Shown one piece after another: positions 9,001-13,422 of a stretch of DNA of 64,000 nucleotides. A model generated the notes under the pieces. The model was not told the origin of the DNA. It did no database searches and was given only the letters and a program-made list of their open reading frames with translations. Within the stretch, counting starts at the first letter, position 1, and the number at the start of each line of letters is the position of its first letter. This DNA comes from the human T2T-CHM13v2.0 reference genome, Homo sapiens, in assembly GCA_009914755.4 (NCBI GenBank), contig CP068257.2, forward strand, positions 11,328,001 to 11,392,000, written 5' to 3'. Made by a program: the position numbers and the translations under genes.

Positions 9001-9659
9001 GCGCTGAAAATGTCCACTTGCAGAATCTCCAAAAACAGTGTTTCCAAACTGGTGAATCAAAAGAAAGTTTCAACTATTTGAGTTGAAGGCACACATCACA
9101 AAGAAGATTCTGAGAATACTTCTGTCTAGTTTTTCTGTGAAGATATTTCCTTTTCCACTATAGGCCCAAAAGCGCTACAAATGTCCACTAGCGGATTCTA
9201 CAAAAAGAGTGTTTCAGAACTTCTCAATCAAAAGAAAGGTTTAACTCTGTGAGTTGAATGTACACATCACAAAGAAGTTTCTGAGAATGCTGCTGTCTAG
9301 ATTTTATATGAAGATATTCTCGTTTCCAAGGAGGGCCTCAAAGGGTACCTAATATCCACTTGCAGATTCTACTAAAGGAGTGTTTCAAAATGACTCTATG
9401 ATAAGGTATGTTCCACTCTGTGAGTTGAAGGCAAACATCAAAAAGAAGTTTCTGAGAATGCTTCTCTCTAGTTTAGATGGGAAGATACTTCCTTTTCCAC
9501 TATAGGCCTCAAAGTGTTCCAAGTGTCCACTTGCAGATTCTACAAAAAGAGTGTTTCAAAACTGCTCTATCAAAAGAAAGTTTCAACTCTGTGAAGTGAA
9601 TGCACACATTACAAACAAGTTTCTGAGAATGCTTCTGTCTAGTTTTTATGTGAAGATAT

Positions 9660-9676
9660 TCCCGTTTCCAACGAAG
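9660..9676 (-). promoter_or_regulatory. Intact CENP-B box (17-bp CENP-B binding motif) inside a B-type alpha monomer
   Basis: The sequence tCCCGtTTCCAACGAAg is the reverse complement of the canonical nTTCGTTGGAAnCGGGn. All essential TTCG/A/CGGG positions are present. Confidence 0.7.
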
Positions 9677-11706
9677 GCCTCAAAGCAGTCCAAATATCCA
9701 CTAGCATATTCTACAAAAAGAGTGTTTCAAAACTGCCCCCATGAAAATGAATATTCAACTCTGTGAGTAGAATGCAAACATCACAAAGAAGTTTCTGAGA
9801 ATGCTTCTGCCTAGTTTTTATGTGAAGATATTTCCTTTCCCACCATAAGCCCCAAAGCGCTCCAAATGTCCACTTACAGAATCTACAAAAGAGTGTTTCA
9901 AACCTGCTCTATCAAAAGAAAGGTACAACTCTGTGAATTGAATGCAAATATCACAAAGAAGTTTCTGAGAATGCTTCTGTCTAGATTTTATGTGAAGATA
10001 TATCCTTTTCTAACTTAGGCTGCAAAGCGCTTCAAATGTCTACTTACAGAATCTACAAAAAGAGTTTTTCCATAATTCTCAATCAAAAGAAAGTTTCAAC
10101 TCTGTGAGATAAACGCACACATCACAAAGAAGTTTCTCAGAATTCTTCTCTCTAGTTTTTATGTGAAGATATTTCCTTTTCCACCATAGGCCTCAAAGCA
10201 CTCCAAATGTCCACTTGCAGATTCTACAAAAAAAGAGGTTCAAAACTGCTCAATCAAAAGAAAGGTTTAACTCTGTGAGATGAATACACACATCACAAAG
10301 AGGTTTCTCACATTGGTTCTGTCTAGATTTTATGTGAAGATATTTCCTTTAATAACAGGTCGCAAAGCCCTCCTAATGCCCACTTGCAGATTCTACAAAA
10401 AGAGTGTCTGTAAACTGCTCTATCAAAAGGAAGTTTCAACTCTGTGAGAAGAACTCACATATCACAAAGAAGTTTCTCAGAATTCCTCTGTCTAGTTTTT
10501 ATGTGAAGATATTTCCTTTCCCACCATAGGCCTCAAAGTGCTCCAAATGTCCACTTGCAGATTCTACAAAAAGAATGTCTCAAACCTGCTCTATCAAAAG
10601 AAAGGTTCAACTCAGTGAGTTGAATGCACACAGCACAAAGAAGTTTCTGAGAAATCTTCTGTCTAGTGATTATGTGAAGATATTCCCGTTTCCAATGAAG
10701 GCCTCTAACCGGTCCAATTAAACTCGTGCAGATTCTACTAAAAGAGTGTTTCAAAACTGCTCTATGAAAAGGTTTGTTCAACTCTGTGAGTTGAAGGCAA
10801 ACATCACAAAGAAGTTTCTGAGAATGCTTCTGTGGTTTTCATGGGAAGATATTTTCTTTTCCACTATAGGTATCAAATTGCTCAAATGTCCACTTGCAGA
10901 GTCTACAAAAAGATTGTTTTAAACCTGTTCTATCAAAAGAAAGTTTCAACTCTGTGAGTTGAATGCACACAGCACAAAGAACTTTATGAGAAAGCTTCTG
11001 TCTAGTGTTTATGTGAAGATATTCCCGTTTCCAAGGAATGCCTCAAAGCGGTCCAAATATCCACTTGCAGATTCTACTAAAAGAGTGACTCAAAACTGCT
11101 CTATGGTAAAGTATTTTCAACTCTGTGAGTGGAATGCAAACATCACAAAGACGTTTCTGAGAATGCTTCTTTCTAGTTTTTCAGTGAAGATATTTCCTTT
11201 TCCACTATAGGCCTCAAAGCGTTCCAAATGTCCACTTGCAGATTCTGCAAAAAGAGTGTTTCAAATCTGCTCTATCAAAAGAAAGGTTCAACTCTGTGAG
11301 TTGAATGCACACATCACAAAGAAGTTTCTGAGTATGCTTCTGTCTAGTTTTTCTGCGAAGATATTTCCTTTTACACCATAGGCCTCAAAGTTCTCCAAAT
11401 GTCCCCTTGCAGATTATACAAAAAGAATGTTTCAAAACAGCTCTATCAAAAGAAACGTTCAACGATGTGAGGTGAATGCACATATCACAAAGAAGCTTCA
11501 GAGAATGCTTCTGTCTGGTTCTTATGTGAAGATATTTCTTTTTCCACAATAGGCATCAAAGCTCTCCAAATGTCCAGTTGCAGATTCTACAAAAAGAGTG
11601 TTTCAAAACTGACCTATCAAAAGAAAGGGTCAACTCTGTGAGTTGAATGCACACATCACAAAGAAGTTTCTGAGAATGCATCTGTCTAGTTTTTATGTGA
11701 AGACAT

Positions 11707-11723
11707 TCCCGTTTCCAACGAAG
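11707..11723 (-). promoter_or_regulatory. Intact CENP-B box in a second B-type alpha monomer
   Basis: The sequence tCCCGtTTCCAACGAAg is identical to the box at 9660. Confidence 0.7.
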
Positions 11724-13422
11724 GCCTCAAAGCAGTCCAAATATCCACTAGGAGATTCTACAAAAACAATCTGTCAAAACTGCTCCATGAAAACGTGTGT
11801 TCAACTCTGTGAGTTGAGTGCAAACATCACAAGGAAGTTTCTGAGAATGCTTGTGTCTAGTTTTTATGCGAAGATAATTCCTCTTCCACCATAGACCTCA
11901 AAGCCTTCCAAAGGTCCACTTGCAGATTCTACAAAAAGAGTGTTTCATACTTGGTCTATCAAAAGAAAGGTTCAAATCTGTCAATTGAATGCACACCTCA
12001 GAAAGAAGTTTCTGAGAATGCTTCTGTCTAGTGTTTATGTGAAGATATTCCCTTTTCCTAAGAAGGCTTCAAATCGGTCCAAATATCTACTTGCAGGTTA
12101 TACGAAAAGAGTGTTTCAAAACTGCTCTATGAAAAGGAAGGTTCAACTCTGTGAGTTGAATGCAAACATCACAAAGAAGTTTGTGAGAATGCTTCTATCT
12201 GGTTTTTATGTGAAGATATTTCCGTTTCTACCATAGGCCTCAAAGCTCTCAAAATGTCCACATGCAGATACTGCAAAAAGTGTTTCAAATCTGCTCTATC
12301 AAAAGAAAGTTTCAAGTCTGTGAGTTGAATGCACACATCACAAAGAAGTTTCTGAGAATGCTTCTGTCTAGTTTTTATGTGAAGATATTTCCTTTACCAC
12401 CATAGGCCTCAAAGCTCTCCAAATGTCCACTTGCAGATTCTACAAGAAGAGTGTCTCAAACCTGCTCTATCAAAAGAAAGGTTCAACTCAGTGAGATGAA
12501 TGCACACATCAAAAAGAAGTTTCTGAGAATGCTTCTGTCTAGTTTTAATGTGAAGATATTCCCGTTTCCAATGAAAGCCTCAAATAAGTCCAAATATCCA
12601 CTAGCAGATTCTGCAAAAAGAGTGTTTCAAAACTTCTCAATCAAAAGAAAGGTTCAACTCTTTGAGATGTACGCACAAATCACAAAGAAGTTTCTCAGTA
12701 TTTTTTGTCTAGTTTTTATGTGAAAATATTTACTTTTCCACTGTAGGCCTCAAAGCGCTCCAAATGTCAACTTGCAGATTTTACAAAAAGAGAGTTTCAA
12801 GACAGCTCAATCAAAAGAAAGTTTTAACTCTGTGAGATGAATGCACACATCACAAAGAAGTCTCTCAGATTCATCCTATCTAGATTTTATGGGAATATAT
12901 TTCCTTTTCTAACATAGGCTGCAAAGCGCTCTAAATGTCCACTTGCGGATTCCACAAAAAGAGTGTTTCCAAACTGCTTAATCAAAACAAAGGTTCAACT
13001 CTGTGAGATAAACGCATGCATCACAAAGAAGCTTCTCCGAATTCTTCTGTGTAGTTTTGATGTGAAAATATTTCCTTTTCCTCCTCAGGCCTAAAAGCGC
13101 TCCAAATGTTTTCTTGCAGATTCTACAAAAAGAGAGATTCAAAACTGCTCAATCAAAACAAAGGCTTAACTCTTTGAGATCAGTGCACACTTCACAAAGA
13201 AGTTTCTAAAAATGCTTCTGTCTAGTTTTTATGTGAAGATATTTCATTTTCCACCGTAGGCCTCAAAGCACTCCAAATATCCACTTGCACATTCAACAAA
13301 AAGAGAGTTTCAAAACTGCTCAATCAAAAGTAAGAGTTAACTCTGTGAGATGAATGCACACATCCCAAAGAAGTTTCTCAGATTGCTTCTGTCTAGATTT
13401 TATGTGGAGCTATATCCTTTTC

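What the first reader, a model, noticed from the sequence alone, without database searches (positions are those of the whole stretch)
9100..12720. Alpha-satellite array changes character near its edge: CENP-B-box (B-type) monomers appear only in the last ~3.6 kb
Monomers from nt 1 to ~9,100 all carry the A-type '…ttccttttccaccataggcctcaaag…' segment and none has a CENP-B box. From ~9,300 onward, monomers with '…attcccgtttccaa(c/t/g)gaaggcctcaaagc(a/g)gtccaaatatcc…ctatgaaaagg…gttcaactctgtgagttgaaggcaaacatca' appear at ~9310, 9655, 10680, 11020, 11700, 12045 and 12555. They sit at irregular spacings of 2, 6, 2, 4, 2 and 3 monomers and form a distinct monomer class interleaved with A-type monomers. 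Two of them keep intact CENP-B boxes (9660-9676, 11707-11723). The other five have CpG-to-TpG or other point changes in the box (caaTGaagg, caaGGaatg, caaGGaggg, ctaaGaagg, caaTGaaag). This pattern fits a degenerating, formerly B-box-containing layer adjoining an older A-type monomeric layer, as expected in pericentromeric 'layered' alpha satellite or at a relic centromere. It does not fit an active HOR.
Basis: seen in the sequence. Interest (0 to 1): 0.6.

Follow-up and report, generated by a model that had tools for sequence, protein, structure and literature searches.

The report
Old centromere-repeat layers meeting (SF5/SF4)
The edge of this degenerate primate centromere-repeat (alpha satellite) array holds two short patches of a younger, well-known repeat family (SF5), mostly with decayed CENP-B protein-binding sites, inside an older family (SF4-type); this is an ordinary, already described feature of pericentromeres.

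Summary
Window 1-13422 is one alpha-satellite array of 80 monomers, all in one orientation, with the conventional monomer on the minus strand. It has no higher-order repeat. Only the boxes at 9660-9676 and 11707-11723 keep the CENP-B core motif.

I scored the monomers with the published PERCON matrices for classes R1, R2 and M1. Monomers in 116-9026, 10053-10563 and 12611-13422 are M1-type (SF4/"SF4+"). Monomers in 9027-10052 and 10564-12610 are R2 (A-type) and R1 (B-type), which is suprachromosomal family 5 (SF5). Irregular R1/R2 alternation defines SF5. SF5 is described as the "dead" layer in which B boxes first appear, lying next to SF4.

The region is therefore two SF5 patches of about 1 kb and 2 kb. 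They are joined in monomer register inside an SF4-type monomeric layer, 0.8 kb from the array end, which abuts an antisense L1.

The kind is already known and interest is low. One side observation: each B box is linked to a variant tail in the upstream monomer.

The parts
1..9026 (-). M1-type (SF4 / 'SF4+') A-only monomeric alpha satellite, monomers c1-c54. Two A subtypes (a/b) alternate loosely.
   Evidence: With the PERCON R1/R2/M1 matrices, 45 of 51 full monomers are M1 at posterior >=0.9, 6 are unclassed and none is confidently R2. They carry G86/T115/T143. Subtypes a and b switch at 39 of 50 steps, p = 8e-5.
9027..10052 (-). SF5 patch 1, monomers c55-c60. Order on the + strand: R2, R1, R2, R1, R2, R2. 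The left junction lies inside c55, between 9055 and 9083.
   Evidence: All six monomers have posterior >=0.978 for R1 or R2. Monomer lengths of 170-172 bp show the junctions are in register.
9318..9334 (-). Decayed B box of c56 (CCTCCTTGGAAACGAGA in the conventional orientation)
   Evidence: Three mismatches to the CENP-B box. PERCON box log-odds B/A is +11.6.
9660..9676 (-). Intact CENP-B box of c58 (CTTCGTTGGAAACGGGA)
   Evidence: Exact match to the full box and to the core motif.
10053..10563 (-). M1-type stretch of three monomers (c61-c63) separating the two SF5 patches
   Evidence: Posterior for M1 is 0.998, 1.0 and 0.884. The states are G86/T115/T143, except A143 in c63.
10564..12610 (-). 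SF5 patch 2, monomers c64-c75. Order on the + strand: R1 R2 R1 R2 R2 R2 R1 R2 R1 R2 R2 R1. The right junction lies between 12576 and 12638.
   Evidence: All twelve monomers have posterior >=0.939 for R1 or R2.
10684..10700 (-). Decayed B box of c64 (first CpG changed to CA)
   Evidence: One mismatch. Box log-odds is +14.1.
11023..11039 (-). Decayed B box of c66
   Evidence: Two mismatches. Box log-odds is +15.9.
11707..11723 (-). Intact CENP-B box of c70
   Evidence: Exact match to the full box and to the core motif.
12049..12065 (-). Decayed B box of c72
   Evidence: Three mismatches. Box log-odds is +4.9.
12560..12576 (-). Decayed B box of c75 (first CpG changed to CA). This is the last SF5 element before the junction.
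   Evidence: One mismatch. Box log-odds is +16.2.
12611..13422 (-). Terminal M1-type monomers c76-c80. The last one is cut at conventional position 43.
   Evidence: Posterior for M1 is >=0.98. nhmmer finds no alpha satellite beyond 13422.
13423..15910 (-). 5'-truncated L1 in antisense orientation. Its poly(A), read as poly(T) at 13423-13434, abuts the array end.
   Evidence: ORF2 fragments on the minus strand match Pfam RVT_1 at E = 7.7e-24 and 1.7e-10. The sequence was read. No target-site duplication was found.

Best explanation
This is the end of a non-HOR ('monomeric', relic) pericentromeric alpha-satellite array of a hominid.

Most of the array is the older, purely A-type, M1-like family (SF4 proper or SF4+). 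Two short patches belong to the next younger family, SF5. SF5 consists of A-type R2 monomers irregularly interspersed with B-type R1 monomers, which carry the CENP-B box. The patches are 9027-10052 and 10564-12610, 18 monomers in all, of which 7 are R1.

Shown:
- the class of every monomer;
- the coincident switch of the A-type monomers at the patch borders;
- the absence of any HOR;
- that all four junctions keep the monomer register;
- that 5 of 7 boxes have lost the CENP-B core motif.

Inferred:
- The patches are remnants of a formerly homogenised SF5 centromeric array.
- They became interleaved with SF4 by homologous, in-register exchange (unequal crossover or gene conversion) at or near an SF5/SF4 layer border.
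- Since then everything has decayed neutrally. CpG observed/expected is 0.12-0.31. The first CpG of the box is lost in 5 of 7 monomers, close to the 37% G at that position in the published R1 matrix.
- The two intact boxes could still bind CENP-B if unmethylated, but no centromere function is expected here.
For: - PERCON-matrix Bayesian typing gives the pattern M...M | rBrBrr | MMu | BrBrrrBrBrrB | MMMMM.
- A reference-free column test picks positions 115, 86 and 143 as the strongest differences between A-box monomers inside and outside the patches (p = 3e-10, 1e-8, 2e-6). These are three of the five positions at which the published M1 and R2 consensus sequences differ.
- The B monomers are closest to the R1 consensus (0.89-0.94) and less close to J2, D1 and W1-3.
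- B spacing is irregular: 2, 6, 2, 4, 2, 3.
- There is no HOR. The lag profile is flat and the best pair is 94.7% identical.
- Monomer lengths are 170-172 bp across all junctions.
- CpG depletion is.
- Literature. SF5 is irregular R1/R2 alternation, lies next to SF4 (M1, 171 bp), and its R1 density ranges from 0 to 60% (PMC4496801 text and supplement). The layer model, and clones containing both 'blue' (SF5) and 'yellow' (SF4) layers, are in PMC2729386. B boxes first appear in SF5 (PMC9549924).
Against: - Only three of the twelve PERCON matrices (R1, R2, M1) were used for the Bayesian step. The other nine classes were excluded by consensus identity only.
- M1 is an umbrella class in PERCON. 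SF4 proper cannot be separated here from SF6, SF7 or older families.
- The M1-like monomers are R2-like at two of the five positions where the consensus sequences differ (C15, G72). They also alternate as two subtypes, which is not the textbook 'monomeric' SF4.
- SF5 flanked by M1 on both sides, close to the array edge, is not the simple centromere > SF5 > SF4 order.
- The species, the chromosome and the direction of the centromere are unknown.
Confidence: 0.9

Rival explanations
1. The block is a decayed fragment of a 'new family' dimeric or pentameric repeat (SF1 J1J2, SF2 D1D2, SF3 W1-5), or of the archaic intermediates SF01/SF02. On this reading it is a dead HOR rather than SF5.
For: - The + strand order B A' B A' A recurs three times (c56-60, c64-68, c70-74).
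- The A-box monomers upstream of each B monomer carry T106/A131/C134/C140. These states also occur in W4, W5, D1 and J1 consensus tails, and W4 is the second-best consensus for them.
- Even lags are slightly more similar than odd lags.
Against: - Every monomer in the block is at least as close to R1 or R2 as to any J, D or W consensus. None carries the J1, J2 or D2 signature positions.
- Monomers six apart across the repeated motifs are only 80-95% identical. That is no better than same-class monomers at any other lag.
- The same four minor alleles are present at 18-40% in the published R2 matrix, so they fall within known R2 variation.
- SF01 and SF02 models were not available, so this rival is not strictly excluded.
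Confidence: 0.05
2. The B boxes arose or were copied locally into the same A-type family. Point mutation or short gene conversion affected the box only, so there is no family change.
For: The B monomers differ from R2 essentially only at positions 15-50.
Against: - The A-box monomers between the B monomers differ from those outside at positions 86, 115 and 143 (0/11, 0/11 and 1/11 against 49/55, 52/55 and 47/55).
- They type as R2, not M1. Whole stretches belong to another family.
- A linked variant tail also lies outside the box region.
Confidence: 0.02
3. The mosaic is an assembly artefact: collapsed or chimeric joining of reads from separate SF5 and SF4 arrays.
For: There are four class switches within 3.6 kb. 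Satellite DNA is prone to misassembly.
Against: - Identity between monomers is only about 82%, which is easy for modern assemblers.
- The junctions are in register and include hybrid monomers (c55, c63), as expected from real homologous exchange.
- No read data are available, so this was not tested.
Confidence: 0.03

Closest known systems
Alpha satellite suprachromosomal family 5 (SF5; R1/R2, 'blue' dead layer)
   Same: - 171-bp monomers typed as R1 (B box) and R2 (A box).
- Irregular alternation: 7 R1 among 18 monomers (39%), inside the published 0-60% range.
- Divergent, with no HOR.
- Most boxes are not functional sites.
- Lies next to M1-type satellite.
   Different: - Only about 3 kb, split into two patches and bounded by M1 on both sides, rather than forming a continuous layer.
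- Position relative to the live centromere is unknown.
Alpha satellite SF4 proper / SF4+ (M1, 'yellow' layer)
   Same: - The flanks are purely A-type, 171 bp and divergent.
- They are typed M1 by the PERCON matrix.
- Exact pJalpha-type motifs are present.
   Different: - Two subtypes alternate (a loose dimer) instead of a uniform monomeric arrangement.
- C15 and G72 are R2-like.
- Could not be separated from SF6, SF7 or older classes.
Mixed-family domains at layer borders described by Shepelev et al. 2015 (SF1/SF5 and SF2/SF5 mixes)
   Same: Two families are interleaved in one array, plausibly by recombination across a border.
   Different: The families mixed here are SF5 and SF4-type. I did not find that pair described explicitly in the papers I read.
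Active HOR arrays with regular CENP-B boxes (SF1-3)
   Same: Same 17-bp CENP-B box, and A/B monomer types.
   Different: - No higher-order periodicity.
- About 82% identity instead of more than 95%.
- Irregular box spacing, with 5 of 7 boxes dead.

Membership tests
SF5 (R1/R2) | Monomers belong to classes R1 (B) and R2 (A) | tested here: met
   With the PERCON R1/R2/M1 matrices, all 18 monomers of the two patches have posterior >=0.939 for R1 or R2. Consensus identity is highest to R1 or R2 among the 12 classes. The other 9 matrices were not used.
SF5 (R1/R2) | Irregular alternation of A and B monomers, no HOR | tested here: met
   Spacings are 2, 6, 2, 4, 2, 3. The lag profile is flat and the best pair is 94.7% identical.
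SF5 (R1/R2) | 171-bp monomer length | tested here: met
   Lengths are 168-172 bp, with a mode of 171.
SF5 (R1/R2) | Position between the HOR core and SF4 | not testable with these tools
   It is adjacent to M1-type monomers. The direction of the centromere and the chromosome are unknown, and no primate genome collection is available.
SF4 proper (M1) | Monomers of class M1, pure A type, 171 bp | tested here: met
   45 of 51 full monomers in 116-9026, and c61, c62 and c76-80, are M1 at >=0.9. All boxes are A. Lengths are mostly 171 bp.
SF4 proper (M1) | Monomeric (single-class) arrangement, distinct from SF6, SF7 and older layers | tested here: inconclusive
   Two linked subtypes alternate at 39 of 50 steps, p = 8e-5. 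No models for the Ha, Ka and older classes were available.
Active or dead HOR (SF1-3, SF01/02) | Multi-monomer repeat unit with high (>95%) identity between units; J, D or W monomer classes | tested here: not met
   SF01/02 class models were not available.
Functional CENP-B binding site | Core motif NTTCGNNNNANNCGGGN | tested here: met
   Met in 2 of 7 B boxes (9660-9676, 11707-11723) and not met in the other 5.
Functional CENP-B binding site | CENP-B occupancy and unmethylated CpGs | not testable with these tools
   Needs CUT&RUN or ChIP data and methylation data.

The most novel reading that the evidence does not exclude
The CENP-B box may not have spread through R2 arrays as a conventional R1 monomer. 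It may have spread as a module of about 118-171 bp that straddles the conventional monomer border.

In this window the box, T15 and C23 of one monomer are perfectly linked to T106/A131/C134/C140 in the tail of the monomer immediately upstream. This holds for 6 of 7 B monomers and for 0 of 69 other monomers (p = 3e-8). The seventh module is cut by the SF5/SF4 junction.

The published genome-wide R2 matrix has the same four minor alleles at 25%, 34%, 40% and 18%. That would fit a genome-wide rule. If general, it would define the tract of the proposed 'R1 invasion' of R2 centromeres and give a handle on its mechanism.
Probability: 0.1. Interest if true: 0.4.

Novelty: already known. Interest (0 to 1): 0.15.

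Why it matters
It matters little. Layered relic alpha satellite is well described: SF5 with decaying CENP-B boxes lies next to SF4. In complete human assemblies it is annotated monomer by monomer. The window is a clean small example of two layers interleaved in register. The layer model predicts that the centromere lies to the right of the window. The only point of possible specialist interest is the tight linkage of each B box to a variant tail in the upstream monomer. That could bear on how B-type units spread in ancestral ape centromeres.

Tried and rejected
- HOR search: lag profiles to 40 monomers, the full pairwise matrix and TRF. Nothing exceeded 95% identity.
- A 5- or 6-monomer ancient HOR suggested by the recurring B A' B A' A motif. 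Rejected because identity at lag 6 is no better than same-class identity at other lags.
- Classification as J, D or W classes. Rejected by consensus identity.
- Text search of the paper library for the consensus strings of the a and b subtypes, to name the M1-like subtypes. No hits.
- Search for an L1 target-site duplication, to decide whether the L1 inserted into the array. None found.
- Pfam scan of an ORF in the GC-rich region near 54 kb, to identify the locus. No hit.
- Mapping to a primate genome was not possible. The available DNA collections are viral, bacterial/archaeal, metagenomic, plasmid and E. coli, so those scans were not spent.
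Full report
**What is there.** Tandem Repeats Finder reports a single 171-bp array over 1-13422 with 79% matches. 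nhmmer finds 80 monomers, all in one orientation, and no alpha satellite anywhere else in the 64-kb window. The conventional alpha-satellite monomer lies on the minus strand. The array stops inside a monomer, at conventional position 43, against the poly(T) at 13423-13434. That poly(T) belongs to a 5'-truncated antisense L1 whose ORF2 fragments match Pfam RVT_1. The rest of the window is Alu-rich non-satellite DNA.

**Checking the observation.**
- The full CENP-B box occurs exactly twice, at 9660-9676 and 11707-11723. The core motif also has 2 matches, against 0.01 expected.
- Allowing three mismatches gives exactly seven sites: 9318, 9660, 10684, 11023, 11707, 12049 and 12560. Shuffles give 0.29 expected.
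- The published PERCON A/B-box matrices (PMC4496801 supplement) class these seven monomers as B and all others as A, with a wide margin.
- Their confinement to 20 of 78 monomers is unlikely by chance (p = 5e-4).
- No higher-order repeat exists. Mean identity is 0.81-0.83 at every lag from 1 to 40, and the best pair is 94.7% identical.
Two small corrections apply: about half of the left-hand monomers carry a variant A box, and the last five monomers of the array are again A-only.

**What it is.** I took the twelve human monomer-class consensus sequences, and the R1, R2 and M1 frequency matrices, from the PERCON paper's supplement. I re-cut the array in the conventional frame.
- A reference-free column test compared A-box monomers inside and outside the B-containing region. 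It singles out positions 115, 86 and 143. The M1 state occurs in 0/11, 0/11 and 1/11 monomers inside, against 52/55, 49/55 and 47/55 outside (p = 3e-10 to 2e-6). These are three of the five positions at which the M1 and R2 consensus sequences differ.
- Bayesian typing with the three matrices gives this pattern:
  - c2-c54: M1 (45 at posterior >=0.9, 6 unclassed, none confidently R2);
  - c55-c60: r B r B r r;
  - c61-c63: M M u;
  - c64-c75: B r B r r r B r B r r B;
  - c76-c80: M M M M M.
- By consensus identity the B monomers are closest to R1 (0.89-0.94) and the interleaved A monomers to R2. J, D and W classes score lower.
- Irregular R1/R2 alternation without HOR, in 171-bp monomers next to M1, is the published definition of SF5, the 'blue' layer. 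It is the youngest dead layer and the one in which B boxes first appear (PMC4496801; PMC2729386; PMC9549924).
- The R1 share here is 7 of 18 monomers (39%), within the published 0-60% range.

**Structure of the mosaic.** The SF5 material is two patches, 9027-10052 and 10564-12610. M1-type sequence lies on both sides and between them. Diagnostic positions place the junctions at:
- 9055-9083, inside the hybrid monomer c55;
- 9967-10081;
- 10478-10592;
- 12576-12638.

Monomer lengths stay at 170-172 bp across all four junctions. In-register junctions with hybrid monomers are what homologous exchange between two related arrays produces. I therefore infer unequal crossover or gene conversion at or near an SF5/SF4 border. 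A non-homologous insertion or an inversion is less likely, and all monomers keep one orientation.

The window does not show which side faces the centromere. The layer model (centromere > SF5 > SF4) would be satisfied if the centromere lay to the right, beyond the non-satellite DNA. If it lies to the left, the order is locally reversed.

**State of the boxes.**
- Five of the seven boxes have lost the core motif. All five have lost the first CpG: two by CG>CA, the others by transversions. c56 and c72 have also lost the second half-site (CGGG).
- The second CpG survives in 6 of 7 boxes.
- In the published R1 matrix only 37% of monomers have G at that first-CpG position. Two intact boxes out of seven is therefore typical of the class.
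- CpG observed/expected is 0.12-0.31 across the whole array, as expected for old, methylated, unconstrained DNA.
- Whether the two intact boxes bind CENP-B cannot be tested here.

**Rivals.**
- A decayed new-family or archaic (SF01/02) repeat is suggested by the thrice-recurring B A' B A' A order and by W4/D1-like states in the A' tails. However, no J, D or W signature positions are present. Units six monomers apart are no more alike than same-class monomers elsewhere. The four tail alleles are also ordinary minor alleles of the R2 class.
- Local origin of the boxes within one family is contradicted by the class switch of the A monomers.
- Misassembly cannot be tested without reads. It is not suggested by anything in the sequence.

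**Side observations.**
1. Within the SF5 patches, T106/A131/C134/C140 occur in exactly the six A-box monomers that lie immediately 5' (conventional orientation) of a B-box monomer, and in none of 69 others (p = 3e-8). The B monomers themselves have R2-like tails. The physical B-type unit is therefore a module of about 118 bp, for example 9660-9777, that straddles the conventional monomer border. The seventh module is cut by the right-hand junction.
2. The M1-like part is not uniform. Two subtypes, defined by eight linked columns, alternate at 39 of 50 steps (p = 8e-5). All ten exact pJalpha-type motifs lie in subtype a, and none lies in the SF5 patches.

**Verdict.** The feature is a known kind: SF5 relic patches with decaying CENP-B boxes inside an SF4-type monomeric layer. 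In complete primate assemblies such regions are already annotated monomer by monomer. Interest is low.

**Limits.**
- Only three PERCON matrices were used.
- The older SF4+ classes and SF01/02 could not be modelled.
- The window could not be mapped to a genome with the available collections.

Noticed in passing
window 1-9026 (also 10053-10563 and 12611-13293): The 'A-only' part has two linked A-type subtypes. Conventional positions 31, 42, 68, 80, 82, 127, 153 and 159 read AGAATGGA in one and CATCAATT in the other. They alternate at 39 of 50 steps (p = 8e-5), which is a loose dimeric organisation rather than a uniform monomeric one. Which named SF4+ class(es) they represent could not be determined.
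   Followed up: partly
window 237, 922, 2287, 3314, 5916, 6424, 6764, 7102, 8805, 10173: The motif TTCCTTTTYCACCRTAG, taken from memory as the pJalpha site, has ten exact matches. All are in subtype-a M1-like monomers. None is in subtype b or in the R2 monomers of the SF5 patches.
   Followed up: partly
window 9318-12165, e.g. module 9660-9777: Each B box (with T15 and C23) is linked to T106/A131/C134/C140 in the tail of the upstream A-box monomer (6/7 against 0/69, p = 3e-8). The same minor alleles occur at 18-40% in the published R2 matrix. The B-type unit is therefore offset from the conventional monomer frame.
   Followed up: partly
window 4734-4937, 7663-7841, 8355-8514: Scars in the array: adjacent truncated monomers of 60 and 144 bp, a 179-bp monomer, and a 160-bp monomer that lacks most of its A box.
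   Followed up: no
window 13423-15910: A 5'-truncated antisense L1 (RVT_1 hits) abuts the array end with its poly(A) tail. No target-site duplication was found and no alpha satellite lies on its far side, so the original array edge may have been removed or replaced.
   Followed up: partly
window 54001-54500: A CpG-rich, GC-rich island (GC 0.66, CpG observed/expected 0.64) sits in otherwise AT-rich, repeat-rich DNA. The overlapping 206-aa ORF (54320-54940, minus strand) has no Pfam match.
   Followed up: partly
window 36173-36784: TRF reports a 312-bp unit repeated twice (81% matches) whose consensus looks Alu-like, i.e. two Alu elements in tandem.
   Followed up: no
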